DNA from: a virus
DNA: 64,000 nt
UHGV virus genome: UHGV-0298424
Strand: one strand, 5' to 3'
In this document: positions 4,209 through 61,463 of the stretch, one piece after another
Layout of the letters: the number at the start of each line of letters is the position of its first letter
Position numbering within the stretch: the first letter of the stretch is position 1
Program-made: the position numbers and the translations under genes
Notes under the pieces: generated by a model
Seen by the model: only the letters and a program-made list of their open reading frames with translations
What the model was told of the DNA's origin: nothing
The model's database searches: none

Positions 4209-4209
4209 G

Positions 4210-4755: not shown

Positions 4756-4769
4756 TTCCGATACCCGAT

Positions 4770-5234: not shown

Positions 5235-5294
5235 AATTGTTTCTCCGCTTAAACGCAGTCTTGGGAGACATAAGTCTGTTCCCAACTGTAAAAA

Positions 5295-5663: not shown

Positions 5664-5694
5664 GATAATTCTCCTTTAGGGTAAAAAATGAAAA

Positions 5695-5722
5695 TACCCT
5701 ACTCCTGTCTAGGAGTAGGGTA
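5695..5722 (-). terminator. intrinsic terminator hairpin
   Basis: TACCCTACTCCT-loop-AGGAGTAGGGTA followed by T-run on minus strand. Confidence 0.55.
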
Positions 5723-5726
5723 GGTA

Positions 5727-7207: not shown

Positions 7208-7217
7208 AACCGGCCTC

Positions 7218-22047: not shown

Positions 22048-22506
22048 TCAGTACAAACACGATGTCAAGTATTGGTTATACGAATCGAGCAGTGCCTGAC
22101 GGTCGGAACGGTAATTCCACAACAAATTATTGAGTTTACGCGATAAATCACGGCTAATCTCCTGGGCCGTTAAAGAGCTCTCATCAAGAAACATGCGCTC
22201 AGGTACAACGTGTAATTTCGGTAACTCATAGCGTTCACAAAGTGGAGCCAACATTGGTGGACTCCAGCCACGTTTAGCGGCTTGCTGGTTTAAATTTCGT
22301 GTGTAGACATAAACGTAATAAGCATAGGTGTTGACATCTGCAACATACTCACGCATTGCATTCTTGTCAATTTTCCAATTCACCATTATTGGCGGTTCAG
22401 GAGGAAGTTCCAGTGGTCTATAAGCTGGACGTTTAACTTCGTCACCGTAGCTATTACTCACCAACCCCACGAACACTACCATGATGAATAATAGCATTTT
22501 CATCAA
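22048..22506 (-). CDS. secreted hypothetical protein
   Basis: N-terminal signal peptide MMKMLLFIMVVFVGLVSNSYG; no lipobox Cys. Confidence 0.45.
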   Translation of the reverse strand: MMKMLLFIMVVFVGLVSNSYGDEVKRPAYRPLELPPEPPIMVNWKIDKNAMREYVADVNTYAYYVYVYTRNLNQQAAKRGWSPPMLAPLCERYELPKLHVVPERMFLDESSLTAQEISRDLSRKLNNLLWNYRSDRQALLDSYNQYLTSCLY

Positions 22507-23010
22507 TCACTCCTTAGAAGACGATAGCGTCTTTATGATCTCCTGTCGAAAACTGTTCGCGTTTAAATTACCAACAGGTCTCGCCGAAGCCTCTTTACGT
22601 TGTTCTGGTGTTGAAGCCGGATTAACAGGAGTTTCTGGTTTTGCCGAGGACAGATCCTTCGTCGTACCGCTCGCTTTCGATGAATTAAACGTGCTTTCAT
22701 ATGGCGGTTTCTGGCCGAGGCAAACGAAGAGTCTGTCGTATAACTTATCATTATCTTCTTTTAGTTTATCTCGATCTTGTTTCATCTCTTGGTAAGACTG
22801 TGACATATAAGTGTCATGAGACTGCACTGCAACGAGCGCGTGAAACTGTTGTACATAGGCGTAGGAGACGAAGCCAGAATACGACAACAAGATCGTGATG
22901 ATTAAAGTCATTATCTTGCTTGCTCTTGATACGTTTTCTCCTTCTCCTGGTTTAAATGCTTCCATTAACATCTGAAGGAAGAACGGAAGCACTTTAAAAA
23001 ATGAACCCAT
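22507..23010 (-). CDS. membrane-anchored coiled-coil protein
   Basis: hydrophobic helix TLIITILLSYSGFVSYAYV then charged helical region and Pro/Thr-rich tail. Confidence 0.4.
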   Translation of the reverse strand: MGSFFKVLPFFLQMLMEAFKPGEGENVSRASKIMTLIITILLSYSGFVSYAYVQQFHALVAVQSHDTYMSQSYQEMKQDRDKLKEDNDKLYDRLFVCLGQKPPYESTFNSSKASGTTKDLSSAKPETPVNPASTPEQRKEASARPVGNLNANSFRQEIIKTLSSSKE

Positions 23011-26686: not shown

Positions 26687-27166
26687 TTAAAACAGTGGTA
26701 AGTTACGCCATTGACCTACCGAGTAAAAAGCTTTTGGATGTTTGCGGATATACGCTTTCGCTTCTTCTGGCAACCAACGATCGCCTACCAGTTTTTGTTG
26801 CGCAACAATTACCGCCAACAGTAAATACGGGTTTTTCGCACCGGGGAACTTTGCATTGGTTTCTAGCGCAATATCTAACATTGACGACCAGCCCAGTAAT
26901 TTACGTTGCGCCGGTAAACGTCCTTCAATAAACATTAGCCAGTCCATGATTTGTCTGGGTTTATACGGACACGTATAATTCGCCCAACTCACCATGGCGA
27001 ACTTAATAGCCTTCGCAATAACCCATACAGGAACTGCCACGAAAAGACAGAAAATGGTCAACTGTGAGGCAGGTGCATCGATAAAAGTAACCGCTACAAG
27101 AACCATACACAGTTCAAGCACCACAAACCAAAAACGTGTTGGATAACGCCAAATGAATTTTATCAT
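26687..27166 (-). CDS. putative membrane protein
   Basis: 159 aa; two N-terminal hydrophobic helices; AAGGAA SD. Confidence 0.45.
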   Translation of the reverse strand: MIKFIWRYPTRFWFVVLELCMVLVAVTFIDAPASQLTIFCLFVAVPVWVIAKAIKFAMVSWANYTCPYKPRQIMDWLMFIEGRLPAQRKLLGWSSMLDIALETNAKFPGAKNPYLLLAVIVAQQKLVGDRWLPEEAKAYIRKHPKAFYSVGQWRNLPLF

Positions 27167-27232: not shown

Positions 27233-27742
27233 TTAGAAGAACGGCTGATTTGGAATGACAGCGTACTCTAAAATGAACATGTGCTCTGGGGCGTCTTCTT
27301 TACGCCAGACTTTGTGTGTTAACACAAGTTTTTCCAGAATCGTTAGAAAACTACGCTGGCAGTATGTGTTTTCGCCAAGTAGCAGTTTCTGAAGTTCTAC
27401 AGTAGCGTCCATATACGCCTGTTTAAAGACTAGGCTACGGTTATACTGTCCGGTAAAATTCCAAAGCAAGACTTTCCCTTCTTCGGTTTCTTTTACCGTT
27501 GGACGTAAACCACAAATCCACAGCAAGGCAAGGTTGACGTTCCAGTCAAACTCTAAACCTTCCTCTTCGTCATCACCGAATGCTGTAGGTAAAGCATCGT
27601 AAAATTCGTGTTTCTCTGCGAATTCTTCATCCGATTTAATCTCGTCTTCGATGCTGCTTCGGACGATACCGTAAATGTCTTTCGCGGTTAGTTGTGCGGC
27701 TTTTGTAATGCCTTTATACCAATCGGTTACAACGATGCTCAA
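27233..27742 (-). CDS. hypothetical protein
   Basis: 169-aa ORF overlapping the upstream gene by 4 nt. Confidence 0.4.
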   Translation of the reverse strand: MSIVVTDWYKGITKAAQLTAKDIYGIVRSSIEDEIKSDEEFAEKHEFYDALPTAFGDDEEEGLEFDWNVNLALLWICGLRPTVKETEEGKVLLWNFTGQYNRSLVFKQAYMDATVELQKLLLGENTYCQRSFLTILEKLVLTHKVWRKEDAPEHMFILEYAVIPNQPFF

Positions 27743-28464
27743 AGGGTAACTCCTCTATTGATTGGAAAACTCGTGTTTATCGTATCCCAAATTTTACTAA
27801 CTTCCGCCAATTGAATCTGACGTGATGTTTTCTTCGCAAACGCAAGCTGACGTGGGGCCGAGCCCACAACAACAGGCACATCGATTTTCGCGCTATAGAA
27901 CGCGGCATCTTTCATAAAGCCTGCCATTTCTCGTTGTGCTGCTCGAGATTTGCTTTTGATTCGCGTGTGAGCGCCACTTTCACCCCAGTGGTAAGCTAAC
28001 GCAACTTCAGCCATGGTGGGCTTGCGTTTGAGTCGTTTGGTTAACCCCTTCTCAAGATGTTTAACATACGCGGTAGCCAGCAAAACAGCGTTACGCGGAT
28101 TATACAAATCGGCGTTCTGACTAAGACCTAATTCTTTTCCATAAAGCTTTAGCAGACTACGCTTGGTACTTGGAAGCATCTGTACCAGGCTGTGTGCCCG
28201 TGAGCTTTTGTTGTAAGCCTTGGGATCAAAACGTGATTCGCGATAAATCAGCGTAATCATCAGCTTAGGATCAACGCCTTGCTTTCGTGAGATTTCCACA
28301 ATTAACGGACTGACTTTTTCGAACCGATGTTGGATTTGTGTAAACTCACGCTGATGTTTAGTTTGTGGCGTTGACGTTGACGCCTGTGCGTTAAACGCGA
28401 AAAGTGTTACCAGTAAAAGAAAGAAGATACGAAACATTTTGTTTCTCCAGTTGGATTTATACAT
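27739..28464 (-). CDS. secreted lytic transglycosylase (SLT domain)
   Basis: signal peptide; ESRFDPKAYNKSSRAHSLVQM resembles the SLT E-S...GLMQ catalytic motif, followed by AYVKHL. Confidence 0.55.
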   Translation of the reverse strand: MYKSNWRNKMFRIFFLLLVTLFAFNAQASTSTPQTKHQREFTQIQHRFEKVSPLIVEISRKQGVDPKLMITLIYRESRFDPKAYNKSSRAHSLVQMLPSTKRSLLKLYGKELGLSQNADLYNPRNAVLLATAYVKHLEKGLTKRLKRKPTMAEVALAYHWGESGAHTRIKSKSRAAQREMAGFMKDAAFYSAKIDVPVVVGSAPRQLAFAKKTSRQIQLAEVSKIWDTINTSFPINRGVTL

Positions 28465-30531: not shown

Positions 30532-30717
30532 CTAATTCCGCCATTCGCATTCACGTTGACGCCAAATTGAACCCCATGATAGTTTAATCAGATAAGATGA
30601 AACTACCCATAAAATCATCACCACGCAAAACATGACATAAAGAACCGCTAGAATGGACATGAAACCAAACCCCGCCGCGTCCATAAAACGACGGAACCAA
30701 TCAGTTTGCATAAACAA
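30532..30717 (-). CDS. small membrane protein
   Basis: 61-aa ORF with hydrophobic helix FGFMSILAVLYVMFCVVMILWVV; overlaps the Rad50-like stop. Confidence 0.4.
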   Translation of the reverse strand: MFMQTDWFRRFMDAAGFGFMSILAVLYVMFCVVMILWVVSSYLIKLSWGSIWRQRECEWRN

Positions 30718-33205
30718 TTTTTACTCCTTCGTTATACACCGCAGGCAATGTCACTCCTTCCGGTTCGATGACACAGTACGATGCTTCATTAAGTTTAGAA
30801 TGGACCTCAGCTTCGTGGGAAACTACCAAGAGTTGTGAAAATTCTCCCGAGTTTGCTAACGTTTTAATAAAGCCGACCAGGTTATTACGGTGTTCCTCGT
30901 CCATGCCTTCCGAAGGCTCATCCAAAAGCAACGGAAACTGATGCAACTTCAGCGCTTTGTACGCAGTCAGTCTGAACATCAGATTAAATATAGCACGCTG
31001 TGCCTTAGACCCTTTACGCACGTCAGGAACAGGCTCAGGGTGCGTTTTTAGCTGGACAGGAAAAGTATAATCCAAATCACCGTCAGTGAGATCACAGGGC
31101 ATAACACGCATGGGGTACGTCCAGACCTGTTCGATATAACGCGTCATTAACTCTGTGATTCTAACGATAGCGTTGTAAAAATACTTTCTAAGTACACCCT
31201 TTTCTGGCGAGAAGGCTTGAATCATCAGTTTGTTATTGAACTGTTGGGCTTGTAAGTCTGTAAGTTCGCGCTCCAAACTGTTGAGCTGATTCAATTCATT
31301 TTCCATCTGACGATAACGTTCGCGTGCAGTTGTAAAAGCATCCAGCTTCCCTTCCCGCACTCGTAAGAGTTCCTCGACGACCGTATTTGTCAACGTAACC
31401 TTAACATCACTCTCTAACCGTTCGAATAACGCACTGAAATCATCTACAGCACGTTTAACATTCACTAGATAGGTAAGTGTCGTGTTAGCCAGTTCGTGCT
31501 CTCTACGACGCATTGAGAGCATCTCTGTGGCTTTACCTAACCGTGACTGTTGGAAGGCGATCTTTTGTTGTAAAGCACCATCGACGTTACCAACGGCCGC
31601 CACGGCATCCTGCCATTCTTTTTCCGCTTTCACTAACCGTTGTCGGGTTTCATGGTACTCAATAGCAGAGTACAACTCACCGTCAAACGCTGCGCATAGA
31701 CTCCCGAACTGCTCGCGAGACTCTGTGAAAACGTTACGTTCTTGCAAACGCTTAAAGAACATACTCAATACAGGGTCCTTTGAATACGTCAGTACAATCT
31801 CACGAACCTGCCGCATATAAGTTACATCAGATTCTAATTCAACACGATCGCGTAATAAGGTCTCTAGCTGTGTTTGAAGTTCCGTCCGTTGCTGCTGTTG
31901 ACCACGAATCGATGACTCGAGTTCAGGTAAAGAACGCGTAACACCTGGCCGAAACTTAAACCGACACTGCGGACAATCCACTTCTGCTGTTTCTAAGTAG
32001 TGGTTACGTTCGTGATTTAAATTCTGTAAAACGTTCTCCACTCGCTGGAGTCTATCCCGTAATCCTGCGGTTTTTTGATCCATCACCAGAAGGCGTTCTT
32101 CCAAAACATTGAGTTTCTCGGTTGAATGAATAGCGTCCAGTGTTGTTCCCAACCGTTGTCCCCAAACACGCGCATCGGTAGCCGCACGAAGTTGGTCTAA
32201 ACTGACGTTATCGTTAAATAAACCCGGAAAGAGATGCTCGGTGTCCCATTTGGTAAGTAACTCACGTAAACGTGCCAGTGTATTCTTGAGACCTTCGTGG
32301 TTCCGCATCAGGTAGTCTTGTCGTGTTGACTCATCCATCAATAACGACAAGTCTTTATTCAACATCGATACCTCTGTTTCGGTAGAAACGACGGCTTCGC
32401 GGGCTGTCGCTTCATTTTGTCGGGCGGCCAGTATCTGTTCATCAGTAGGCAACCCACCACGATGTTGTAATATTGCGTCGATGGTTGGACCCAAGCCGTT
32501 TAATAAGGCTTGGATTGTTTCGATCGTGACGGCACGATTTAATCCTGGCAACTGTTCGATTTCTCGGTTCAGTTCACGTAAATCCGATTCCAAACCTTTT
32601 AATCTCGTTGCTAATTGTTGTCGTTCTTCCTCGTTCTCAATAACGCGCGTCCGTAATTCGGCAATCTTACGACTGGTGATTTCAATACCCCCATTTAAGG
32701 CGGTAAGGTTTTTACGCAAACGTTGATAAAACCCTAACGCGTATGTAAGATCAGAGGTACTTAAACGGTAAAACCATTTACGGCGTAATTCGGTTCCCGC
32801 ATCGGTTAACAAAACCTCACCATTTAATAGTTCTTTAATTTCTTTCGTAATACCCGTGATTTCTTCAACACGGGAGTTGTAGACCTTCGCATTACCTTGC
32901 TCGACGATCTTTGCTCCCGTGGTCAGATTTTCAATATCGCAAACCAAAGAGTTACCTTTACGGGCAACTTTGAATCGATACCGTTGATCACCAACTAAAC
33001 AGTAGTTCGTGTAAGAACCGCCGTCTCTGAATTCAGTTTTAGCCGGTGCTAAGGGTAAGAATACAGACAGTAGACTGGTTTTCCCGCAACCGTTCCCACC
33101 CAGGATAATTGTTGTTGGAGACTGGATAGTGAAATCGAAAGTTTCAATTTCATGTAATCCCATCCCCGTAAAACCTTTGAGTATAATGCGTTCAACTTTT
33201 AGCAT
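30701..33205 (-). CDS. Rad50/SbcC-like SMC-family ATPase with zinc hook
   Basis: start at ATG 33205 after GGAGGTGGG; N-terminal Walker A GGNGCGKTS, long coiled coils, central CPQC hook, C-terminal LLLDEPSEGMDEEH signature/Walker B. Confidence 0.65.
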   Translation of the reverse strand: MLKVERIILKGFTGMGLHEIETFDFTIQSPTTIILGGNGCGKTSLLSVFLPLAPAKTEFRDGGSYTNYCLVGDQRYRFKVARKGNSLVCDIENLTTGAKIVEQGNAKVYNSRVEEITGITKEIKELLNGEVLLTDAGTELRRKWFYRLSTSDLTYALGFYQRLRKNLTALNGGIEITSRKIAELRTRVIENEEERQQLATRLKGLESDLRELNREIEQLPGLNRAVTIETIQALLNGLGPTIDAILQHRGGLPTDEQILAARQNEATAREAVVSTETEVSMLNKDLSLLMDESTRQDYLMRNHEGLKNTLARLRELLTKWDTEHLFPGLFNDNVSLDQLRAATDARVWGQRLGTTLDAIHSTEKLNVLEERLLVMDQKTAGLRDRLQRVENVLQNLNHERNHYLETAEVDCPQCRFKFRPGVTRSLPELESSIRGQQQQRTELQTQLETLLRDRVELESDVTYMRQVREIVLTYSKDPVLSMFFKRLQERNVFTESREQFGSLCAAFDGELYSAIEYHETRQRLVKAEKEWQDAVAAVGNVDGALQQKIAFQQSRLGKATEMLSMRRREHELANTTLTYLVNVKRAVDDFSALFERLESDVKVTLTNTVVEELLRVREGKLDAFTTARERYRQMENELNQLNSLERELTDLQAQQFNNKLMIQAFSPEKGVLRKYFYNAIVRITELMTRYIEQVWTYPMRVMPCDLTDGDLDYTFPVQLKTHPEPVPDVRKGSKAQRAIFNLMFRLTAYKALKLHQFPLLLDEPSEGMDEEHRNNLVGFIKTLANSGEFSQLLVVSHEAEVHSKLNEASYCVIEPEGVTLPAVYNEGVKIVYAN

Positions 33206-34464: not shown

Positions 34465-34485
34465 GACCCCGGACATTCCGGGGTC
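34465..34485 (-). terminator. intrinsic terminator hairpin
   Basis: GACCCCGGA-CAT-TCCGGGGTC; T-run on minus strand. Confidence 0.5.
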
Positions 34486-34495
34486 AAGACTACAC

Positions 34496-34885
34496 TCAAT
34501 GATCTAATTCGATAGCGCCAGCCATCTTGCCCCGTTCTTCGATAACGATCAGATAACGGTCGCGAGATTTGCTTTTAGCGAGAGTTAAGACAACAGTAGG
34601 GTCGCACGTTTTCGTGGTGATAGGAAGAACCTCTCTTGCAACGGAATCGAGTAGAAAGTAATAACCTGCGGGACACATTGTGCCACCATCAGCTTTTACC
34701 AGAATATAGCGCCCGTCTGCGCCGACTTCTTGGCAGATTGTTTCACCGACTTCACAAACTTCAAACCCCGGGGGATTATACTGATAATCGGTATTGTTGT
34801 TTGAGGTTAGCAGTAAATCATTAACCTGGGTAGATGCCGCTACACTCAGGGAGAAGAAGAATGCTAAAGCGCAGATGAGACGCAT
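34496..34885 (-). CDS. small secreted protein 1
   Basis: signal peptide MRLICALAFFFSLSVAAS; 6 Cys in mature part. Confidence 0.45.
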   Translation of the reverse strand: MRLICALAFFFSLSVAASTQVNDLLLTSNNNTDYQYNPPGFEVCEVGETICQEVGADGRYILVKADGGTMCPAGYYFLLDSVAREVLPITTKTCDPTVVLTLAKSKSRDRYLIVIEERGKMAGAIELDH

Positions 34886-34895
34886 GAGTTACTCC

Positions 34896-35306
34896 TTAAA
34901 TTTTAAGTTTATCCATAGCTACAACGATAGGTTTTTCCGAAGTGTCTAATATCCCTACCATCGGTACACCATTTTTGATTTCGAAGAACGGTTTGTTATT
35001 GCCAGAGCACAAACGTTTGTCGTTGTATTCGAGACGTTGTGCCTTCCACGTTTCGAGGTTGAGTACGGACATAGGGCTGTCGTAGCACCAGGCCCCACCC
35101 TGCTCAACGATGAACACGTATCTGCTACCTTTGTATTTAAACAGGCTCTTCGCCTGACAGTACAGGCCGTCAATTTCTGTACAGTAGAAATCGTCGGCAC
35201 TATTGACGTACTTAATTCCAGCTGGCAACTGTGTTATTTTTGCTGATACGTTAACAGAGAACAGAATAGCAATTGCAATGAGAAGAGTGTTGATGATAGT
35301 TTTCAT
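34896..35306 (-). CDS. small secreted protein 2
   Basis: signal peptide MKTIINTLLIAIAILFSVNVSA. Confidence 0.45.
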   Translation of the reverse strand: MKTIINTLLIAIAILFSVNVSAKITQLPAGIKYVNSADDFYCTEIDGLYCQAKSLFKYKGSRYVFIVEQGGAWCYDSPMSVLNLETWKAQRLEYNDKRLCSGNNKPFFEIKNGVPMVGILDTSEKPIVVAMDKLKI

Positions 35307-35316
35307 GATAAACTCC

Positions 35317-35802
35317 TTAGTATTTAGATTGTTCTACGTACTTCTTAACCAGATAACCGAATTCAGCAACGCCGATTTCGCCGAACCAAACCAGATAACC
35401 GGGGTCGATGTTGTAGTAATAACCGACGAGTTTCTTGGTGTGTGGGTTGTATAGCGTTACGATATATTCCCAGCCACAAGCGTTAGCTTTACAACCACCA
35501 CTTTCAATCCAGATTTTGTTGTTGATATTTACCGGATACATGTTACCGCCAGGGCCATCCATGTAACCTTTAGAGCCGAACATTCCATCCAGTCCCACCG
35601 GATCTAGTGTTTTATCAACAACACCTTTAAATGACTTATCGGTATCGTACAAGTCGTTGATGTTTGGACACGCATTTGGCTGACCTTCCCGAGCGTTCCC
35701 ATCGCAGGTAAGCAATTCGTCTACGGAGGCCGCATCTACAGTAGGTGTGGCACCGATAAACAAGAAAACCAGAAAGAACATCAGTGTATGTAAACGTTTC
35801 AT
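35317..35802 (-). CDS. small secreted protein 3
   Basis: signal peptide MKRLHTLMFFLVFLFIGATPTVDA. Confidence 0.45.
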   Translation of the reverse strand: MKRLHTLMFFLVFLFIGATPTVDAASVDELLTCDGNAREGQPNACPNINDLYDTDKSFKGVVDKTLDPVGLDGMFGSKGYMDGPGGNMYPVNINNKIWIESGGCKANACGWEYIVTLYNPHTKKLVGYYYNIDPGYLVWFGEIGVAEFGYLVKKYVEQSKY

Positions 35803-35820
35803 TGTGACTACTCCTTTAGA

Positions 35821-36213
35821 TTATTCAGCAGGACGATTTAAAGTAACACGGCCAATTAATTCGGCGTTATGAAAGAAGTCCACAGCGGTATAGTTACCAA
35901 CTGATAACGGATGTATGCTAACCGACATGACTTTTGGTTGTTCACAGGCGATATCGGTCAAACGTTGGTAGACTTGTGCACGGGTGTCAGCAATGAGTAA
36001 TCCTGTACATGTTTCACCACGTACTAAACGATAAACTTGCAGTTTACCGAAACTGCGCATTAACGTAGGTGTCTCATCCGGGTTGATAATCGGTGAGTCA
36101 GGAGCGGGTTCGTAATGGTTGACATCCGAACCGCCGAAAGCGTAAGTGCCAGTAATGCCGATTGCACAGAAAACAATGATAGTATAAAGTATAGTTCTAA
36201 TATTCATTTTCAC
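35821..36213 (-). CDS. small secreted protein 4
   Basis: signal peptide MKMNIRTILYTIIVFCAIGITGTYA. Confidence 0.45.
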   Translation of the reverse strand: MKMNIRTILYTIIVFCAIGITGTYAFGGSDVNHYEPAPDSPIINPDETPTLMRSFGKLQVYRLVRGETCTGLLIADTRAQVYQRLTDIACEQPKVMSVSIHPLSVGNYTAVDFFHNAELIGRVTLNRPAE

Positions 36214-36235
36214 GCACTCTAAAAAAGATTAATAC

Positions 36236-36697
36236 TTATTTGTTAGGACGGGTGTGTCCACAGTTCTGGAAGAAAGTTTCAGATAGACGTTCGCCTTCTA
36301 CGGTAAAGTTAGCGGCGTCATTACCATTGATACTCACGCTGAAATTTTTGGCATTACCGATAGCATTAACGAAAGCAACCCAAGCGAGTTCTGCTTTGTC
36401 ACTACCATCCACGGTAGGGATGTTATAGGTTTTGCCGTTTACGACAATATCCATCGTGTTATCTTCAGCGTTAGTTGCACCTACAGGTTCCCCGTAATAC
36501 CAAACCATGCGACCGTAAAATTTGCGATTCGCGGTTTCAGTGTCACAGTTGATAGACAGTCCGTTTCCGGTGGTGTCTTCGATTTCGTAAACTGCCTGAC
36601 CAGGGTTCTGTATTTGTTCCCAGCTGTTGATAGCGGCGTGTGCAGTATTGAATCCGAAAGTTAAAATGGTTACTAAGAACGCGATAAAAGTTTTCAT
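36236..36697 (-). CDS. small secreted protein 5
   Basis: start at ATG 36697 with AAGGAG SD gives signal peptide MKTFIAFLVTILTFGFNTAHA. Confidence 0.45.
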   Translation of the reverse strand: MKTFIAFLVTILTFGFNTAHAAINSWEQIQNPGQAVYEIEDTTGNGLSINCDTETANRKFYGRMVWYYGEPVGATNAEDNTMDIVVNGKTYNIPTVDGSDKAELAWVAFVNAIGNAKNFSVSINGNDAANFTVEGERLSETFFQNCGHTRPNK

Positions 36698-36743: not shown

Positions 36744-37166
36744 TTAAATGAGAAAGTGGGCAACTCTTTTAATCTGTCTATAACTATCATCGATACCTCT
36801 TATTATTTCCAGACGTTCTTCTGAAGAAAGGCATTGGTTAATGTCTTCGTCAAGATTGAACAATGTCATGAGTTTTGCAATCGAAACTGCCAGGTTGTCC
36901 GATAGCTCGTTGTTTTTACGCCATTCTTCGTTACGGAAAATACAGATAAGGTCTTTCACCTGGTTTTCAGCGAGCGGTTTGGCTAACTGTGCGTCGCGCT
37001 GTTCGAGAAGGTATGCTTCGTTGGTAAGTAATTGTTTCAGGTCTTCTGGGTAAAGGGCAGCGCGAGTAACGATCAGTAATACAACAAACGGGTCTTTGAA
37101 CAATTCGTTTTTCATCTTTAGTTCTCCTAAAATGGTTTCGTTAAGTGAGAGTAACTGAACTCTCAC
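36744..37166 (-). CDS. hypothetical protein
   Basis: 140-aa ORF; conserved 21-bp motif and hairpin immediately upstream. Confidence 0.4.
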   Translation of the reverse strand: MRVQLLSLNETILGELKMKNELFKDPFVVLLIVTRAALYPEDLKQLLTNEAYLLEQRDAQLAKPLAENQVKDLICIFRNEEWRKNNELSDNLAVSIAKLMTLFNLDEDINQCLSSEERLEIIRGIDDSYRQIKRVAHFLI

Positions 37167-37190
37167 CTAAGTAATATATATCTGAAATTA
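37141..37190 (+). promoter_or_regulatory. hairpin plus conserved TAAGTAATATATATCTGAAAT motif (copy 1)
   Basis: GTGAGAGT...ACTCTCAC stem followed by the motif; near-identical element at 41520-41590. Confidence 0.35.
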
Positions 37191-37219: not shown

Positions 37220-37239
37220 GGTGGGGGTAAACCCCCACC
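37220..37239 (-). terminator. intrinsic terminator hairpin
   Basis: GGTGGGGGT-AAA-CCCCCACC preceded by AAAAAATAAAA. Confidence 0.55.
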
Positions 37240-37243
37240 GACG

Positions 37244-37822
37244 TTATACATCGAACCGATACTGCCGGGAGTTAATGAGGAACTCAGTATTCAGCTCAAT
37301 CCATTCGAGTAAATCCCCCAACGGTAATCGGTTTGGGTTTTCTAACTCGATAGATGCAACCGGATAAGAGTTTACTAATTCCGTAATCGCCTCAATGCCC
37401 TCTTGCGTTCCATCGTCTTCTAAGGTGATTGTAAACGGCATATCGGTACGTTCCGCATTAGGATTGTACAAACTGACTTTCGTTGCTTGCACAAACGCAG
37501 TCAGGTCGTCTCGCATAATGCGAATATCTGGCGCTAGAACTACCCAGAGATGTTGCCCTGGCTGGAGTTTACGTTTTGCGTAGTTTACGAAAGGACTTGC
37601 CGTCAAGTTATCTAAACCACAACAGATGTTACGTAAACGAATTCCGCGCGGATCTTTGTAATCCACGTCGAAAATCCCCACAGGTTCATTCGCTGCCCGC
37701 TTTATCAGAAAGGCTAATACCGTGTCCGCTCTTTCTGGTAAGGAAAGCTCTATTCCCTCAAGCTCCCCATCGACGAGATTTTCTAACCAAACGTCTTTTC
37801 GCATTTCTATTAATCGGTACAC
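37244..37822 (-). CDS. hypothetical protein
   Basis: 192-aa ORF; terminator 37220-37239 after stop. Confidence 0.4.
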   Translation of the reverse strand: MYRLIEMRKDVWLENLVDGELEGIELSLPERADTVLAFLIKRAANEPVGIFDVDYKDPRGIRLRNICCGLDNLTASPFVNYAKRKLQPGQHLWVVLAPDIRIMRDDLTAFVQATKVSLYNPNAERTDMPFTITLEDDGTQEGIEAITELVNSYPVASIELENPNRLPLGDLLEWIELNTEFLINSRQYRFDV

Positions 37823-37834
37823 GGTTCCACCTCA

Positions 37835-38608
37835 CTAATAATTAAGTTTTACATCGGCAATAAACAGCAACTGTTTACCGTGTTGCTGCACTTCTTTCCA
37901 ACCTAGTTTCATAGCAGCGTCAACAACATCTATCATGCTGTAACGAGACATCAACGCGGTTGATTTTGTTCCTGACATTAAGTAAAGCGGCTCGTTGGGG
38001 CAACGGTCGCGTGCATCAGGAAGTTCCCGAGAGACTGCTGAGCCTTCGGGTACGGTAACAACATGAATCACGGTAAATGGTCTTTTGTGGGTTAAATAAA
38101 TACGAAACCCAACGTGTTCAGACTCATGAAAGACTTTCTTTACAACCACATCTTTTAGTGTCGTCTGAACATCAATCCCAGGTAATATCGTGGATTCGCG
38201 AGAAACAAAACAACGACTATTTTCAACCATGGAGAAATAATTACGTATCGGTAAACTGGCGTTATGATCGCGCAGTTTTTTGCTCAGTAGATCGAAGTTC
38301 AGTTCTTTAACTTTCTCTAGCCATTCTTTGGCTTGTTGTATGTAATAACTACCAACGGTGCGATAAGTCAATACCTTGCCTGTGCTTACTTTCCAAAGTT
38401 TAACGCTTAGTGAATTCGGCTTATAGCGACGATACTCACCCCGCGTATAGTTGATGCGCTCGTAACGCTCTACATCGTCAACGGGCGCAGATTCGATCGA
38501 TTGTAATTGCAACGTACGATCTAATCTATCGGCGAATAGTAGTGATGTTAGCGGACCTTCGATCAAATACGGTTCGGTTTTAAAGATATCATCTAGATGG
38601 ATTTTCAT
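37835..38608 (-). CDS. hypothetical protein, QLLF-tail paralog family member 1
   Basis: N-terminus MKIHLDDIF and C-terminus GWKEVQQHGKQLLFIADV shared with three adjacent genes. Confidence 0.45.
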   Translation of the reverse strand: MKIHLDDIFKTEPYLIEGPLTSLLFADRLDRTLQLQSIESAPVDDVERYERINYTRGEYRRYKPNSLSVKLWKVSTGKVLTYRTVGSYYIQQAKEWLEKVKELNFDLLSKKLRDHNASLPIRNYFSMVENSRCFVSRESTILPGIDVQTTLKDVVVKKVFHESEHVGFRIYLTHKRPFTVIHVVTVPEGSAVSRELPDARDRCPNEPLYLMSGTKSTALMSRYSMIDVVDAAMKLGWKEVQQHGKQLLFIADVKLNY

Positions 38609-38675: not shown

Positions 38676-39827
38676 TTAGAGGTCAGCAACAAACAACAGC
38701 TGGCAGCCGTACTTTTGTACGTCCGCCCAACCGTAGTCTTTTCCGATTATAGGTAGATGTAAAAAATCCAGCTTCTCGTCTTTCGCTTTTAGTTTCGCCA
38801 TTAACGTATTGGACTCCTCAGCACTGAGCAGTAATGCGGGCTCTTTTTCAGTACGTCCTTCTGCGGTTGGGAAGAAATTGTAATAGCTGCGAGTAGGTAA
38901 ATCGACAGAAAAACTACGATTGCCTATTCTGGCGATGAACGCAACTCCTTCACAGTTAGCATCTACACTACACGACCATCCCGCCTCCGTTAAAAGGTCT
39001 TTTAACAGACACCACACTTTAAGTTGGTTCTTAGAAACTGTACGGTAAATAGCAAGATGTTCAGGAAGTAAATGTACGCCCATAACCACGTTTTCAGATT
39101 TCTCGTCAAGCAACTCTGGATGCTGTATCGGGAACAATAATTCAGTGATACCCACGTTATCAATTTTGTTAACAAAATCAGTTAATTCATCTTTTAAGGT
39201 ACACACGGATTTTTCTCCTTTGTCTTCAATAATCAGGTGGGGTTCGCCGCTAATTAAAATGTGGTAAACGAGATCGTCAGTAGAACGGTAAGTGAGCTTG
39301 ATTGCTTTATCACTTAATATTTCGTAGCGGAAGAAACTTTCGTACCAACTTGAGCCGAAATCGTTTTGTGTGAGTTCCTGCTCAACTTTGATGGTTTTTG
39401 CTTCAAAGCCGATTAACTCGCTTAATAACGCGAGTTCTTGTTTAGTTAAAATAGTTACACCGTGAAAGGGCACTTGTTCAAGCTGAAAACATAACTTAGT
39501 GACTTCACCATTTGGGAAGACCTTAAACATAATCTTCCGGTTGCTACTCTTTTCCCTAACAACAAGTTTACGGTAATTTAGTCCACAATTTGTGTAAGAC
39601 GTGAACTGGTAACCTTCAATTTCTTCATCGAAAGTACAGACATCGACAGGCGCGATAATCTCATTGTATTCACTAAGTACACAGCAGCCCAATTTATAAC
39701 CAAACAACGTATGTTGTAAAAAATAGTCGAGGGTTAAGCTTGGTAGTGGCCAAGCCCGATTATAGCATCTGTCCATCAGTTCTTTTAGGTACTTGGCATG
39801 TCTTGGTTTAGAAATAATATTTCGCAT
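38676..39827 (-). CDS. hypothetical protein, QLLF-tail paralog family member 2
   Basis: 383 aa; C-terminus FFPT...GWADVQKYGCQLLFVADL; appears to contain an internal duplication of the domain. Confidence 0.45.
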   Translation of the reverse strand: MRNIISKPRHAKYLKELMDRCYNRAWPLPSLTLDYFLQHTLFGYKLGCCVLSEYNEIIAPVDVCTFDEEIEGYQFTSYTNCGLNYRKLVVREKSSNRKIMFKVFPNGEVTKLCFQLEQVPFHGVTILTKQELALLSELIGFEAKTIKVEQELTQNDFGSSWYESFFRYEILSDKAIKLTYRSTDDLVYHILISGEPHLIIEDKGEKSVCTLKDELTDFVNKIDNVGITELLFPIQHPELLDEKSENVVMGVHLLPEHLAIYRTVSKNQLKVWCLLKDLLTEAGWSCSVDANCEGVAFIARIGNRSFSVDLPTRSYYNFFPTAEGRTEKEPALLLSAEESNTLMAKLKAKDEKLDFLHLPIIGKDYGWADVQKYGCQLLFVADL

Positions 39828-41519: not shown

Positions 41520-41590
41520 CGTAGGGACTGAAGTGCCAGTTCAGTCCCTATTCACTTAAGTAATATATATCTGAAATCAATTCCGATCTA
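41520..41590 (+). promoter_or_regulatory. hairpin plus conserved TAAGTAATATATATCTGAAAT motif (copy 2)
   Basis: AGGGACTGAA-loop-TTCAGTCCCT stem followed by the motif, about 15 nt upstream of the first plus-strand structural gene. Confidence 0.4.
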
Positions 41591-59472: not shown

Positions 59473-59865
59473 ATGGCGATCAGTGTTAAAAATGTGCGTG
59501 ACCGAATCACCAACGTAGAGAACCAAATGGCAACTGGCCCACGTGTTGATCCGCAAGTTGCGTCGAAAGCACATAACGCTGCTGATTCATTTTCAGGTTG
59601 GACACCCGGTCGATTAGATTGTGGAGGTAGCTGTAGCTGGACATGCTCAAACGGTTGTACGCATGGTTGTACGAGTTGTTCAGGTACATGTACATCGGTG
59701 TGCGTAGGAAGCTGTTCCTCTGCGTGTGGTAATCAATGCAGTGGTTGTAGCGGAACGTGTTCGGGTGGTTGTTCAGGATGTAGTGGGACTTGTAGTGGGG
59801 GATGTGCTGGACGTTGTTCCTCGGGGTGTAGCGGTTCTTGTGCAGGTGGTTGTTCTAACCCATAA
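59473..59865 (+). CDS. Cys-rich precursor-like protein A
   Basis: about 130 aa; leader-like N-terminus then DCGGSCSWTCS and about 30 Cys in C-S/T-G-x-C repeats; AAGGA SD. Confidence 0.6.
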   Translation: MAISVKNVRDRITNVENQMATGPRVDPQVASKAHNAADSFSGWTPGRLDCGGSCSWTCSNGCTHGCTSCSGTCTSVCVGSCSSACGNQCSGCSGTCSGGCSGCSGTCSGGCAGRCSSGCSGSCAGGCSNP

Positions 59866-59884: not shown

Positions 59885-60799
59885 ATGGAAGAACTTACTA
59901 GACCGACGGTATCCGATAAGCTCTACAGTAATCCGAGAACGTTAAACGTGATTACAACATCCAAATGTAATCTGGACTGTAGCTTCTGCGGCGGAGCCTA
60001 TTACATGCATAGAGAGGATACAACCGCAGAAGTACAAAAGGAAAGTATTATCGAGGCGCTGGAAAATAACCCGACTATCACAAATATCCAATGGTCAGGG
60101 GGCGAACCATTACTTGCCACGCGTAAAATTGATACCCTTATAGAAGAGATAAGGGAGAAGTATCCTCGTTGCGAACATTACCTGTATACCAACGGTTTAA
60201 AAATGCGTAAATCGCATCTACCGTTGTTAAAGGGTTTTGATAGTATCTTTTTTAGCATGGATGGATTCAAAGAATCAGAGCGTCCGTTCATGCGGATTAT
60301 CGAAGAAAAACAATACGAGGTTTTGGAGACAATTTACGAATTGAAAAATATTCGTACTTGGGCGGTTTTGACACGCGAGCGTATTGGGGATAAACGTTGG
60401 TACGAAGATATAATTGCGTTACATAACCACATTTACCATTATGGTTTTTGTGAGATGTCGCTGGTTTTGGACAAAAACATGCCAAAACCGTTATCTCCCG
60501 ATCACGTTATGAACTTTATTTACGGGTATTTTAGAATTCAGGAGAATATAGAAAGACTGAATTCGTCCAATCGAAGCGAATGTGCGTTTACGCTAAATGC
60601 GTTATTTGATGAACCCTGTAACACATGTAGTCGTTGTTTTCGCATTGAGTCTGACGGTGCCCAGAACCAAGTAAAGAACGTTGAAATCGTAACGCAACAC
60701 GGCTGTAGTGACTTGGCCAGAAAGGTTGGATTAGATGCTTACGACTATATACGTCGTGTGGTAGGGGCTAAGAATAGAGTCTCAGAAAAACTACGATAA
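59885..60799 (+). CDS. radical SAM enzyme 1 (SPASM/twitch-like)
   Basis: 304 aa; CNLDCSFC (Cx3Cx2C) at residues 28-35, SGGEPLL SAM motif, C-terminal Cys cluster EC...CNTCSRC...GC. Confidence 0.7.
   Translation: MEELTRPTVSDKLYSNPRTLNVITTSKCNLDCSFCGGAYYMHREDTTAEVQKESIIEALENNPTITNIQWSGGEPLLATRKIDTLIEEIREKYPRCEHYLYTNGLKMRKSHLPLLKGFDSIFFSMDGFKESERPFMRIIEEKQYEVLETIYELKNIRTWAVLTRERIGDKRWYEDIIALHNHIYHYGFCEMSLVLDKNMPKPLSPDHVMNFIYGYFRIQENIERLNSSNRSECAFTLNALFDEPCNTCSRCFRIESDGAQNQVKNVEIVTQHGCSDLARKVGLDAYDYIRRVVGAKNRVSEKLR
59957..60556 (+). repeat. three identical nucleotide blocks shared with radical SAM 2
   Basis: 54 nt (59957-60010 = 62919-62972), 41 nt (60191-60231 = 63153-63193) and about 84 nt (60473-60556 = 63436-63519) identical inside otherwise diverged paralogs. 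Confidence 0.6.
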
Positions 60800-60857: not shown

Positions 60858-61256
60858 ATGGCGATTGGTTTATCTTCTTTAAAGGCCCGGCTAGATAACA
60901 TAGACTCTACTGCATTAAAAAATACAGGTGCGGTGCAGAACTATATTCGTGGTAAAGCCACTAATAATAGCGATCTGTTTGGAGGACAGCCGAGAAATCA
61001 CTATGACTGTGGAGGTAGCTGTAGCTGGACGTGCTCAAGTTGTTCGGGCGGCTGTACCGGCAACGCCTCCGGCGGCTGCGGTTCTTCCTGTTCAGCGAAC
61101 TGTGTTTCAGGATGTAGTACAGGTTGCACAGGTTGTAGCAGTACCTGCTCAGGAGGGTGCACAGGTAATTGCTCGGGCGGTTGTTCAAGTAGTTGCACCG
61201 GAACATGTTCAGGTTCATGTCGAGGCGGATGTCAGCAATCGTGTACTGGAAGATAA
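60858..61256 (+). CDS. Cys-rich precursor-like protein B
   Basis: 132 aa; same architecture as A with 23-nt identical stretch at the DCGGSCSWTCS codons. Confidence 0.6.
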   Translation: MAIGLSSLKARLDNIDSTALKNTGAVQNYIRGKATNNSDLFGGQPRNHYDCGGSCSWTCSSCSGGCTGNASGGCGSSCSANCVSGCSTGCTGCSSTCSGGCTGNCSGGCSSSCTGTCSGSCRGGCQQSCTGR

Positions 61257-61259
61257 GAA

Positions 61260-61463
61260 ATGATAAGTCTTAAAAACATACGCGACAGATTAGTAACGGC
61301 GGAGGGATATATCACCACCGCTAATGCAAACAACTATATTGCAAACCAAGGAACGGTTTCCTCAACCAACAATCTCGCAGGATTACCTTTAAGTCATTAT
61401 AATTGTAATGGCGGATGTAGTTGGTCGTGCAGCGGTAGCTGTAGTAAGGGGGCGGGGGGGTAA
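61260..61463 (+). CDS. Cys-rich precursor-like protein C (short core, ends in G7 run)
   Basis: 67 aa; starts 3 nt after the B stop; leader ISLKNIRDRL..., core NCNGGCSWSCSGSCSKGAGG; stop directly after the poly-G tract. Confidence 0.5.
   Translation: MISLKNIRDRLVTAEGYITTANANNYIANQGTVSSTNNLAGLPLSHYNCNGGCSWSCSGSCSKGAGG

What the first reader, a model, noticed from the sequence alone, without database searches (positions are those of the whole stretch)
34496..36697. Five consecutive small signal-peptide proteins
Five adjacent minus-strand genes (about 130-160 aa each) all begin with a classical cleavable signal peptide and none has a lipobox, so the phage appears to send a battery of small proteins to the periplasm. 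Candidate roles are superinfection exclusion, receptor masking, lysis inhibition or host envelope remodelling.
Basis: partly seen in the sequence, partly recalled or inferred. Interest (0 to 1): 0.5.

Follow-up and report, generated by a model that had tools for sequence, protein, structure and literature searches.

The report
Jumbo-phage operon of exported small proteins
A giant phage carries a tightly packed, probably early-expressed operon of five small proteins built for export into the host periplasm; one is a distant relative of the bacterial lysozyme inhibitor Ivy, which suggests (untested) that the phage shields the infected cell's wall.

Summary
Five adjacent minus-strand genes (34496-36697) each start with a Sec-type signal sequence: a basic N-terminus, a 12-19 residue hydrophobic core and a V/T/A-x-A cleavage motif. 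None has a lipobox or a Tat motif. Each mature part has an even number of cysteines.

The window is an SPN3US-like jumbo phage. The core of the cassette (p4, p2, p1) is syntenic with SPN3US gp180, gp182 and gp183, which are absent from the SPN3US virion proteome.

The five genes plus one upstream ORF lie between two terminators. They sit behind a 30-nt motif matching the phiKZ-type early promoter (TATATTAC), and that motif is conserved upstream of the cluster in relatives.

- p3 is a divergent Ivy-family protein. Its homologues sit in E. coli CP4-like islands, and its C-x4-C loop reads CKANAC rather than CKPHDC.
- p5 belongs to the uncharacterised YfjT family.
- p1 and p2 are paralogues with four invariant cysteines and an all-beta fold with no specific match.
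- p4 is unassigned.

My best reading (about 0.45) is an early periplasmic protection and superinfection-exclusion battery that works like T4 Spackle. The rivals are control of the phage's own exported SLT endolysin, and other envelope targets. No function has been shown.

The parts
37220..37239 (-). Intrinsic-terminator-like hairpin (GGTGGGGGTTTACCCCCACC + T-run). It ends the upstream gene 37244-37822 and forms the upstream boundary of the unit.
   Evidence: sequence read
37160..37189 (-). Early-promoter-like element AATTTCAGATATATATTACTTAGGTGAGAG, with core TATATATTAC at 37171-37180. It matches the phiKZ / 201phi2-1 early (virion RNA polymerase) promoter consensus.
   Evidence: A second copy lies at 41560-41569(-) upstream of the leftward gene block. 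The same motif lies upstream of the cluster in SPN3US, Asesino, phiEaH2, SNUABM29, SNUABM9 and Machina. It is 100% identical over 41 nt to Erwinia phage phiEaH2 although the proteins are only about 45-50% identical. The consensus comes from PMC7058600 Table 2 and PMC7598289.
37145..37166 (-). Hairpin in the predicted 5' leader (GTGAGAG-ttcagtta-CTCTCAC). Its role is unknown.
   Evidence: Read directly from the sequence and not folded. The second promoter copy is also followed by a hairpin.
36744..37115 (-). orf123, the first gene of the unit. It has no signal sequence, matches phrog_27024 and has no known function.
36236..36697 (-). p5: exported protein of the YfjT family. Signal MKTFIAFLVTILTFGFNTAHA|A; mature part 132 aa with 2 Cys.
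   Evidence: Homologues carry PF27224 (YfjT). hhalign against E. coli K-12 YfjT gives probability 97% and E 3e-11. No tblastn hit in 50,697 phage genomes.
35821..36207 (-). p4: exported protein, orthologue of SPN3US gp180 (phrog_9424). Signal MNIRTILYTIIVFCAIGITGTYA|F; mature part 105 aa with 2 invariant Cys and a YQR..DI.C.QP motif. A GTG two codons upstream (36213) is an alternative start.
   Evidence: No match in PDB by profile.
35317..35802 (-). p3: exported, divergent Ivy-superfamily protein. Signal MKRLHTLMFFLVFLFIGATPTVDA|A; mature part 137 aa with 4 invariant Cys; disulfide-type loop C104-KANA-C109.
34896..35306 (-). p2: exported protein, orthologue of SPN3US gp182 (phrog_8968) and paralogue of p1. 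Signal ...NVSA|K; mature part 114 aa with 4 invariant Cys.
34496..34885 (-). p1: exported protein, orthologue of SPN3US gp183 (phrog_5248). Signal ...SVAA|S; mature part 112 aa with 4 invariant Cys and a conserved GG..CPAGYYF hairpin. The predicted domain is a 7-strand all-beta fold.
34465..34485 (-). Intrinsic-terminator-like hairpin (GACCCCGGAATGTCCGGGGTC + CTTTTTT) 10 nt after the p1 stop codon. It forms the downstream boundary of the unit.
27739..28464 (-). Not part of the operon. This is a candidate partner or target: an SLT-domain lytic transglycosylase ('putative endolysin' in relatives) that itself has an N-terminal signal-like sequence (MFRIFFLLLVTLFAFNAQA|STS from Met10).
   Evidence: MltC 6e-9, EmtA 7e-8; PF01464 5e-15; conserved in the clade, with alignments starting at residue 10.

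Best explanation
The five genes, together with one upstream ORF, form a single transcription unit of an SPN3US-like jumbo phage.

Inferred steps:
1. The unit is read early in infection from a phiKZ-type virion-RNA-polymerase promoter.
2. The five products are exported by the host Sec system and cut by signal peptidase I. They fold in the periplasm as 11.6-15.2 kDa disulfide-bonded soluble proteins.
3. They are not packaged into virions. This is shown only for the SPN3US orthologues.

p3 is a divergent Ivy-family protein. By analogy with Ivy, it would insert its disulfide-closed loop (CKANAC) into the active-site cleft of a lysozyme-fold peptidoglycan glycosidase and inhibit it.

The most likely purpose of the battery is to protect or alter the envelope of the already infected cell. 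That would mean blocking wall penetration by the tail-associated muramidases or transglycosylases of superinfecting phages, giving superinfection exclusion and resistance to lysis from without. This is how T4 Spackle works.

p1, p2 and p4 are the conserved core. p3 and p5 (or gp181, or a second YfjT copy) are exchangeable accessory binders. The targets of p1, p2, p4 and p5 are unknown.
For: Anatomy:
- Five ORFs lie 10-28 nt apart, most with strong SD sites, between two terminator-like hairpins.

Export:
- Each has a signal-peptide architecture, with no lipobox, no Tat motif and no second hydrophobic segment.
- This architecture is conserved in orthologues.
- The cysteines are invariant and even in number.
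- The run of five is unlikely by chance, p about 1e-5 to 5e-5.

Not virion proteins:
- SPN3US Table S4 lists no protein between gp173 and gp193.

Early expression:
- The 30-nt motif with TATATATTAC matches the phiKZ / 201phi2-1 early consensus.
- It is conserved upstream of the cluster in six relatives.

p3 is Ivy-like:
- Pfam Ivy hits 6 of 10 family members (best E 0.0077).
- NCBIfam Ivy gives E 0.0018.
- hhalign against E. coli Ivy gives E 4e-4 to 7e-4 and aligns CK..(N/H).CG with CKPHDCG.
- The family profile finds 57 representatives. Of the 32 aligned sequences, 28 match Pfam Ivy, and the loop consensus is C-E/K-x-H-N/D-C-G.

Literature:
- The Ivy loop is essential for inhibition (PMC4262234).
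- Ivy inhibits lytic transglycosylases in vitro (PMC10139938 and PMC3660660).
- T4 Spackle is an early, periplasmic inhibitor of the tail lysozyme gp5 (PMC7677548).

Consistent with protection against incoming enzymes:
- p3 and p5 have relatives in E. coli CP4-type islands, which have no endolysin of their own.
Against: - No functional, transcript or localisation data exist for these proteins. SignalP could not be run.
- The window p3 itself does not reach any curated Ivy threshold. There is no Pfam hit at E <= 1, and NCBIfam gives 18 bits against a cut-off of 180.
- p3 has Asn where Ivy has the loop histidine, so inhibition of lysozyme or transglycosylase may be lost or retargeted.
- The p3 model is only moderate (pLDDT 65; the loop is below 50).
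- E. coli Ivy is only a weak transglycosylase inhibitor.
- p3 is absent from SPN3US, Asesino and the Machinavirus phages. An Ivy-based mechanism therefore cannot explain the conserved core p4/p2/p1, for which no function-bearing similarity was found.
- The early-promoter assignment rests on motif similarity to Pseudomonas phages.
Confidence: 0.45

Rival explanations
1. Lysis-timing control. The periplasmic proteins, p3 above all, bind and hold in check the phage's own Sec-exported SLT endolysin (27739-28464) or the holin until the right moment. This would resemble the T4 RI antiholin, or a dedicated endolysin inhibitor.
For: - The clade's 'putative endolysin' is an SLT transglycosylase with a strongly hydrophobic N-terminal signal-like sequence. 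It would therefore reach the periplasm before lysis.
- Ivy-type proteins inhibit lytic transglycosylases in vitro.
- T4 RI is a periplasmic regulator with a cleavable signal peptide (PMC8385771, listed).
Against: - p3 is missing in SPN3US, Asesino and the Machinavirus phages, which keep the same exported SLT.
- p3 homologues sit in E. coli islands that have no endolysin.
- The operon carries an early-type promoter, whereas lysis genes are expected to be late.
- The Spackle precedent argues that early periplasmic inhibitors do not act on the late endolysin.
- The SLT N-terminus could instead be a membrane tether that needs no inhibitor.
Confidence: 0.2
2. Other envelope targets. The proteins mask or remodel receptors, porins, LPS or Tol-Pal/Lpt components, or neutralise periplasmic host factors such as proteases or envelope-stress sensors. 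This could stop progeny being lost on infected cells or debris, or keep the envelope intact. The Ivy-like fold would simply be a reused binding scaffold.
For: - Four of the five proteins have no link to peptidoglycan enzymes.
- p3 has lost the Ivy histidine.
- p5 is in the uncharacterised YfjT family.
- p1/p2 may be distantly related to the YfjS/YafY lipoproteins (hhalign E about 1e-4, probability 44-55%).
- Cassette content varies between close relatives, as expected for host-interface genes.
Against: - No positive evidence points to any particular target.
- There is no similarity to known receptor-masking proteins such as T5 Llp, which is a lipoprotein; none of the window proteins has a lipobox.
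- The core p4/p2/p1 is conserved across phages of Salmonella, Escherichia, Erwinia and Proteus, whose receptors differ.
Confidence: 0.25
3. The N-terminal hydrophobic segments are uncleaved signal anchors. The proteins are then inner-membrane-tethered factors, for example acting on membranes used by the phage during early infection, rather than soluble periplasmic proteins.
For: - p4 has a 19-residue uncharged run.
- Its SPN3US orthologue even carries a lipobox-like LAAC.
- No dedicated predictor or experiment is available.
Against: - All five have short hydrophobic cores followed by helix-breaking residues and small residues at -3/-1. The Machinavirus p4 orthologues have textbook LSFA|D sites.
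- Either way the bulk of each protein would face the periplasm, as the conserved cysteine pairs suggest.
Confidence: 0.06
4. The proteins are virion-internal or structural proteins, and the hydrophobic N-termini are not export signals.
For: The window encodes many virion proteins elsewhere, and jumbo phages package many small proteins.
Against: - The SPN3US orthologues gp180-183 are absent from the 83-protein virion mass-spectrometry list.
- The genes lie in a leftward non-structural block next to the SbcC/SMC gene, behind an early-type promoter.
Confidence: 0.02

Closest known systems
T4 Spackle (gp61.3)
   Same: A small phage-encoded protein that is made early, exported to the periplasm and not part of the virion. 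It inhibits a peptidoglycan-cleaving enzyme and so produces superinfection exclusion (PMC7677548, PMC7650644). This is the functional analogue proposed for p3 and for the cassette as a whole.
   Different: - Spackle is a single all-helical protein that inhibits allosterically.
- p3 is Ivy-like (beta-sheet plus helices, with a loop-insertion type of motif), and p1 is all-beta.
- Here there are five proteins from at least four families.
Ivy, inhibitor of vertebrate lysozyme (E. coli YkfE/Ivy; P. aeruginosa Ivyp1; Pfam PF08816)
   Same: - A periplasmic protein of about 130 residues with a signal peptide.
- A collinear C-K-x-x-x-C-G loop between two strands.
- Transitive profile homology.
   Different: - The window p3 is below all curated thresholds.
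- Its loop is CKANAC rather than CKPHDC, so the key His is replaced by Asn. The E. coli island homologue P0002 has CKAHAC.
- It has an extra N-terminal Cys pair.
- It is encoded by a phage and by CP4-like islands rather than at the chromosomal ivy locus.
- Its activity is untested.
E. coli K-12 cryptic-prophage module YfjS-YfjT (CP4-57) / YafY-YkfB (CP4-6)
   Same: - p5 is a clear YfjT-family member (hhalign 97%, E 3e-11; PF27224 on close homologues).
- The module consists of adjacent small exported proteins of unknown function in mobile elements.
- p1/p2 show a weak, full-length collinear similarity to YfjS/YafY: PPxF ... C-x-G-YY-L-D ... C ... GK..G.
   Different: - YfjS and YafY are lipoproteins, whereas p1 and p2 have no lipobox and have four cysteines.
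- No member of the p1/p2/gp181 family hits Pfam YfjS_YafY, so that link is unproven.
- YfjT has no known function, so the similarity gives no mechanism.
SPN3US gp180-gp183 and their orthologues in Erskinevirus and Machinavirus phages
   Same: - These are direct orthologues of p4, p2 and p1.
- Gene order is the same, upstream of gp184-gp185-SbcC/SMC.
- The signal sequences and cysteines are the same.
- The same promoter motif lies upstream.
   Different: - All are annotated as hypothetical proteins.
- SPN3US and Erskinevirus have a third p1/p2 paralogue (gp181) in the slot where the window has the Ivy-like p3. Machinavirus phages have nothing in that slot.
- None of them has p5.
T4 RI antiholin
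   Same: A small phage protein with a cleavable signal peptide that acts in the periplasm (PMC8385771).
   Different: - RI binds the holin to delay lysis.
- No sequence similarity was seen in the PHROG or Pfam searches.
- The cassette appears to be early and lies far from the putative lysis genes.

Membership tests
Sec-type (signal peptidase I) secretory proteins | Positively charged n-region, a 7-15+ residue hydrophobic h-region, and a polar c-region with small residues at -3 and -1 | tested here: met
   All five proteins meet this: K/R within residues 2-5; hydrophobic runs of 12-19 residues; VAA, VSA, VDA, TYA and AHA motifs. The feature is conserved in orthologues.
Sec-type (signal peptidase I) secretory proteins | Not a lipoprotein (no lipobox), not a Tat substrate, and no further transmembrane segment | tested here: met
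   Regex and hydropathy scan. Caveat: the SPN3US gp180 orthologue has LAAC.
Sec-type (signal peptidase I) secretory proteins | Positive call by a trained predictor (SignalP) or experimental cleavage and export | not testable with these tools
   No SignalP or DeepTMHMM was available. Only my own heuristic was used, with the invariant even-numbered cysteines as indirect support.
Ivy family (PF08816 / NF007443) | Sequence match above the curated family threshold | tested here: not met
   Window p3 has no Pfam hit at E <= 1. NCBIfam Ivy gives 18.2 bits against a cut-off of 180, E 0.0018. Six of 10 close homologues hit Pfam Ivy only weakly (best E 0.0077).
Ivy family (PF08816 / NF007443) | Homology detectable by profile methods or through intermediate sequences | tested here: met
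   hhalign against E. coli Ivy gives E 4e-4 to 7e-4. The p3-family profile finds 57 representatives. 28 of the 32 aligned sequences match PF08816 at E <= 0.01.
Ivy family (PF08816 / NF007443) | Ivy fold (central antiparallel sheet flanked by helices) | tested here: met
Ivy family (PF08816 / NF007443) | Disulfide-closed inhibitory loop CKPHDC with the central histidine | tested here: not met
   The C-x4-C loop and the Lys are kept and align with CKPHDC. The window has CKANAC, with Asn in place of His and Ala in place of Asp. E. coli island homologues have CKAHAC or CKSNAC, and the distant relatives mostly C(E/K)xH(N/D)C. The importance of the loop comes from PMC4262234.
Ivy family (PF08816 / NF007443) | Inhibition of C-type lysozyme or lytic transglycosylase | not testable with these tools
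   This needs purified protein and turbidity or muropeptide assays.
YfjT family (PF27224) | Sequence membership | tested here: met
   Homologues 75-93% identical to p5 carry a precomputed PF27224 (YfjT) hit. The p5-family profile against E. coli K-12 YfjT gives hhalign probability 97.2% and E 3e-11 over 122 columns. The model is not in the local Pfam copy, so p5 itself could not be scored directly.
YfjS/YafY lipoprotein domain (PF20494) | Pfam match and lipobox | tested here: not met
   None of the 17 p1/p2/gp181 members hits PF20494 even at E <= 10, and there is no lipobox. Only hhalign gives E 1e-4 to 2e-4 at probability 44-55%. This remains an unconfirmed lead.
Known periplasmic lysozyme inhibitors PliC/MliC, PliI, PliG (considered for p1/p2) | Fold or sequence similarity | tested here: not met
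phiKZ-type early (virion RNA polymerase) promoter | AT-rich consensus containing TATATTAC upstream of early operons | tested here: met
   TTTCAGATATATATTACTTAGGTG lies at 37160-37189(-), 45 nt upstream of orf123. A second copy lies at the head of the leftward block. The motif is conserved upstream of the cluster in six relatives.
phiKZ-type early (virion RNA polymerase) promoter | Mapped 5' end or early transcript accumulation | not testable with these tools
   There are no transcript data for this phage. The SPN3US infection proteomics paper was not in the library.
T4 Spackle-like superinfection-exclusion protein | Homology to gp61.3 | tested here: not met
   There is no PHROG or Pfam link, and the folds differ (against the description). 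Any resemblance is functional and hypothetical.

The most novel reading that the evidence does not exclude
The cassette may belong to one exchangeable family of periplasmic 'wall-guard' modules. The other members would be the yfjS-yfjT / yafY-ykfB / Ivy-like modules of CP4-type islands in Enterobacteriaceae.

On this reading, these are small exported binders that block the peptidoglycan-penetration or DNA-entry step of incoming phages. Jumbo phages would use them for superinfection exclusion, and integrative islands would use them as host defence. That would give a first function to the E. coli y-ome genes yfjT/ykfB, and possibly yfjS/yafY.
Probability: 0.2. Interest if true: 0.75.

Novelty: new variant of a known kind. 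Interest (0 to 1): 0.55.

Why it matters
How phiKZ/SPN3US-like jumbo phages deal with the cell envelope after infection is essentially unknown. That includes superinfection exclusion, protection from lysis from without, and control of an exported transglycosylase.

This locus offers a concrete target that is conserved across the clade and probably expressed early:
- Three core exported proteins (SPN3US gp180, gp182 and gp183) are available in a genetically tractable model phage.
- The variable slots have captured an Ivy-type inhibitor and a YfjT-type protein from bacterial mobile islands.

I found no Ivy-like protein in 50,697 phage genomes or in the viral structure library. A phage-borne Ivy relative would therefore be a new route to the Spackle-type strategy.

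The link to CP4-57 and CP4-6 genes would also make long-unexplained E. coli y-genes directly testable as periplasmic anti-phage factors.

Tried and rejected
- **Direct family searches.** Pfam, NCBIfam and PADLOC searches of the five proteins gave nothing except the weak Ivy hit for p3.
- **PHROGs.** Only unknown-function families were found.
- **PDB profile searches.** Nothing meaningful for p1/p2, p4 or p5. The CopC hit covers only the signal peptide, and the ThreeFoil hit is a repeat artefact.
- **Homology among the five.** Only p1, p2 and SPN3US gp181 are related (93-97%). With signal peptides removed, p4 against p1 gives E about 3e-3 at probability about 10%, and the PHROG cross-hit gives E 0.0026. 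I do not accept that as evidence of homology.
- **The YfjS/YafY link for p1/p2.** It is suggestive in hhalign but fails in Pfam, so I keep it only as a lead.
- **Viral structure library.** No match to the p3 model.
- **Tools and papers unavailable.** afdb50 was not available. The SPN3US infection-time proteomics paper is not held. One literature search was too broad to be useful.
- **Faster evolution of the cassette.** It is not clearly so. p1 and p4 are 45-50% identical to SPN3US, like their flanking genes; only p2 is low, at 25-30%.
- **Virion-internal proteins.** Rejected from SPN3US Table S4.
- **Lipoproteins and Tat substrates.** Rejected.
Full report
**1. What is at the coordinates**

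One search shows five consecutive minus-strand ORFs that fill 34496-36697:
- p1, 34496-34885, 129 aa
- p2, 34896-35306, 136 aa
- p3, 35317-35802, 161 aa
- p4, 35821-36207, 128 aa from ATG (a GTG two codons upstream is possible)
- p5, 36236-36697, 153 aa

The p5 reading frame is open up to 36790. However, AAGGAG sits in front of the ATG at 36697, and all homologues start there. AAGGAG also precedes p1, p2 and p3. The genes are 10-28 nt apart.

**2. Are they signal-peptide proteins, and is five in a row more than chance?**

No SignalP was available, so I wrote a simple n/h/c-region scan and applied it to 78 greedy gene calls over the whole window.
- It flags six genes: the five here plus 22048-22503.
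- A seventh, the SLT protein at 27739-28464, qualifies if translation starts at Met10.
- A run of five or more among 78 genes has p of about 1e-5 to 5e-5 under random placement. The heuristic is home-made, and p1 and p2 are paralogues.

Each protein has the following features:
- K/R within the first five residues.
- An uncharged hydrophobic run of 12-19 residues.
- A small-residue -3/-1 motif: VAA|S, VSA|K, VDA|A, TYA|F, AHA|A.
- No lipobox, no twin-arginine motif and no further hydrophobic segment.

Two independent observations support export:
- The signal-like N-termini are kept in every orthologue I extracted from eight related phages.
- The mature parts contain 4, 4, 4, 2 and 2 cysteines, and these are invariant across each family. 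This is what disulfide-bonded periplasmic proteins would show.

**3. Where the window comes from, and conservation of the cluster**

DNA similarity to known phages is limited to a 41-57 nt element. Protein similarity places the window among SPN3US-like jumbo phages: Seoulvirus, Erskinevirus and Machinavirus, with hosts in Salmonella, Escherichia, Erwinia and Proteus.

Synteny is exact. SPN3US gp180, gp182 and gp183 correspond to p4, p2 and p1. They are followed by gp184, gp185 and the SbcC/SMC protein gp186, which is window 30701-33205.

The slot between p4 and p2 is variable:
- SPN3US and Erskinevirus carry gp181, a third paralogue of p1/p2.
- Machinavirus phages carry nothing there.
- The window carries p3.

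p5 is absent from all 50,697 phage genomes, as is p3.

Closer, unpublished relatives exist as Logan/ENA contigs and as contigs of about 220 kb in E. coli and Salmonella assemblies:
- Some carry two YfjT-type genes plus p4, p3, p2 and p1, which makes six exported genes.
- One carries a different mix.

So there is a conserved core (p4, p2, p1) and exchangeable accessory members.

**4. Transcription unit and timing**

On the minus strand the order is as follows:
1. A terminator-like hairpin at 37239-37220, ending the upstream gene.
2. The element AATTTCAGATATATATTACTTAGGTGAGAG (37189-37160).
3. A leader hairpin.
4. orf123 (36744-37115), which has no signal sequence.
5. p5, p4, p3, p2 and p1.
6. 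A strong terminator-like hairpin at 34485-34465.

The element contains TATATTAC, the early-promoter core of phiKZ. It also fits the longer 201phi2-1 consensus ...TTTRARR-BTATATTAC-DWHDGTG (PMC7058600 Table 2). Such motifs are the virion-RNA-polymerase early promoters of these phages (PMC7598289).

Further support for a promoter:
- A second copy sits at 41569-41560 at the head of the leftward gene block, and it is also followed by a hairpin.
- The same motif lies upstream of the exported-protein cluster in SPN3US (directly before gp180), Asesino, phiEaH2, pEa_SNUABM_29, pEa_SNUABM_9 and Machina.
- Its near-perfect conservation at DNA level explains the only megablast hits.

I infer an early operon. 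No transcript data exist.

**5. Not virion proteins**

Table S4 of Thomas et al. 2016 lists the 83 SPN3US proteins detected by mass spectrometry in purified particles. None lies between gp173 and gp193.

**6. What the individual proteins are**

*p3*
- Its closest relatives (57-65% identity) are in E. coli chromosomes, on 864 contigs.
- They lie in CP4-like integrative islands, between a dynamin-like GTPase/YjcZ/patatin group and the DUF932/antirestriction/RadC/CbtA-CbeA genes.
- Evidence for Ivy relationship:
  - Six of ten family members hit Pfam Ivy weakly.
  - NCBIfam Ivy hits the window protein at E 0.0018, far below the cut-off.
  - hhalign against E. coli Ivy gives E 4e-4 to 7e-4 and aligns GCKANACGW with ACKPHDCGS.
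  - A profile of the p3 family against 1.84 billion representatives finds 57 proteins.
  - I aligned 32 sequences: 29 of those hits, the window protein, P0002 and E. coli Ivy. Of these, 28 match Pfam Ivy, and their loop consensus is C-E/K-x-H-N/D-C-G.
- p3 is therefore a divergent member of the Ivy superfamily.
- It lacks the loop histidine: CKANAC in the phage lineage, against CKAHAC in the commonest E. coli island form.
- The CKPHDC loop is essential for lysozyme inhibition. Ivy proteins also inhibit lytic transglycosylases in vitro, though E. coli Ivy does so only weakly.

*p5*
- Close homologues carry PF27224 (YfjT).
- The family profile matches E. coli K-12 YfjT of cryptic prophage CP4-57 at 97% probability.
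- YfjT is uncharacterised.

*p1 and p2*
- They are paralogues of each other and of SPN3US gp181: hhalign 93-97%, or 80-97% with signal peptides removed.
- They have four invariant cysteines and a conserved GG-x-x-C-P-x-G hairpin.
- All 62 database relatives are from this phage clade.
- The AF2 model of p1 has a confident (pLDDT 80-90) seven-strand all-beta domain after a disordered linker.
- A weak, collinear hhalign match to the YfjS/YafY lipoproteins, the neighbours of YfjT/YkfB in CP4-57 and CP4-6, is not confirmed by Pfam.

*p4*
- It has its own PHROG family, two invariant cysteines and no detectable relative of known function.
- Its similarity to p1 is below significance.

**7. Mechanism**

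*Shown by sequence and comparison*
- A compact unit of six genes bounded by two terminators.
- Five products with Sec-type signals and conserved cysteine pairs.
- Orthologues absent from virions.
- One product belonging to the Ivy superfamily.

*Inferred*
- Early transcription by the virion polymerase.
- Export, cleavage and disulfide formation.
- Binding of p3 to a lysozyme-fold glycosidase through its disulfide-closed loop.

*Most likely role (about 0.45)*

The operon is an early periplasmic protection and exclusion battery analogous to T4 Spackle. Spackle is an early, periplasmic, non-virion inhibitor of the tail lysozyme that causes superinfection exclusion. Two points favour this reading:
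- The early-type promoter.
- The presence of p3 and p5 relatives in bacterial islands, which have no endolysin of their own to regulate.

*Main rival (about 0.2)*

The proteins control the phage's own endolysin. The clade's 'putative endolysin' is an SLT transglycosylase with an N-terminal signal-like sequence, so it may reach the periplasm early. However, phages that lack p3 keep the same enzyme.

*Second rival (about 0.25)*

The proteins bind other envelope targets, and the Ivy scaffold has been repurposed. The lost histidine is consistent with that.

The conserved core p4/p2/p1 remains mechanistically unexplained under every model.

**8. Novelty and verdict**

Exported early phage proteins that cause exclusion are a known kind of system (T4 Spackle and Imm). 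The following appear to be new:
- A clade-wide early operon of exported proteins in SPN3US-like jumbo phages.
- A phage-borne Ivy relative. There is none in the phage genome collection or in the viral structure library.
- The sharing of cassette members with the yfjS-yfjT-type modules of CP4 islands.

I rate it a new variant of a known kind, with interest 0.55. The finding is real and testable in SPN3US, but its function is inferred.

Noticed in passing
window 37160-37189(-) and 41545-41575(-): There are two copies of a 26-nt element, ATTTCAGATATATATTACTTA(G/A)GTGA, each followed by a hairpin. The first copy is 100% identical over 41 nt to Erwinia phage phiEaH2, although the proteins are only about 45-50% identical. 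It is probably the early virion-RNA-polymerase promoter of this clade.
   Followed up: partly
window 27739-28464(-), with 27233-27742(-) and 26687-27166(-) downstream: An SLT lytic transglycosylase ('putative endolysin' in relatives) has a strongly hydrophobic N-terminal signal-like sequence. It is followed by a 169-aa protein and a 159-aa membrane protein. This may be a lysis cassette with a Sec-exported or membrane-tethered endolysin.
   Followed up: partly
window 22507-23010(-) and 22048-22503(-): A 167-aa protein has one transmembrane segment, a coiled-coil region and a Pro-rich tail. It is immediately followed by a 151-aa protein with a signal peptide (MKMLLFIMVVFVGLVSNSYG|DE, no lipobox) and a PPEPP stretch. 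The arrangement looks like a spanin pair. Both match only unknown-function PHROGs (8719 and 8165).
   Followed up: no
window 59885-60799(+) and 62847-63770(+); small ORFs 59473-59865, 60858-61256, 61260-61463: Two paralogous radical SAM proteins (PF04055, E 8e-14 and 5e-13) lie in the tail-fibre region. Each is preceded by small proteins with similar N-termini (MAISVKNVRDR..., MAIGLSSLKARL..., MISLKNIRDRL...). This is an unusual pairing for a structural module.
   Followed up: partly
L006-L010 (E. coli chromosomes), locus coordinates 2612-8483: The E. coli homologue of p3 sits in CP4-like islands directly after a dynamin-like GTPase, a YjcZ protein, a patatin-like protein and a 180-aa exported protein. 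It lies before the DUF932/antirestriction/RadC/CbtA-CbeA genes. The neighbourhood looks like a defence island.
   Followed up: no
L003 2784-3185 (SPN3US gp180): The SPN3US orthologue of p4 has LAAC, a lipobox-like motif, inside its signal sequence. The window protein and most other orthologues do not. This family may switch between soluble and lipid-anchored forms.
   Followed up: no
window, whole: The phage lineage is not in the 50,697-genome phage collection; its closest relatives are about 50% identical at protein level. Near-identical genes occur on Logan/ENA contigs and on contigs of about 220 kb inside E. coli, Salmonella and Proteus genome assemblies. This suggests carrier-state or contaminating jumbo phages in isolates.
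   Followed up: partly
window 38676-39827(-) and 37835-38608(-): Two adjacent genes share a C-terminal region of about 70 residues (both hit the C-terminus of phrog_26772; the shared ending is ...GWxxVQxxGxQLLFxADx). They are probably paralogues of unknown function just upstream of the operon.
   Followed up: no
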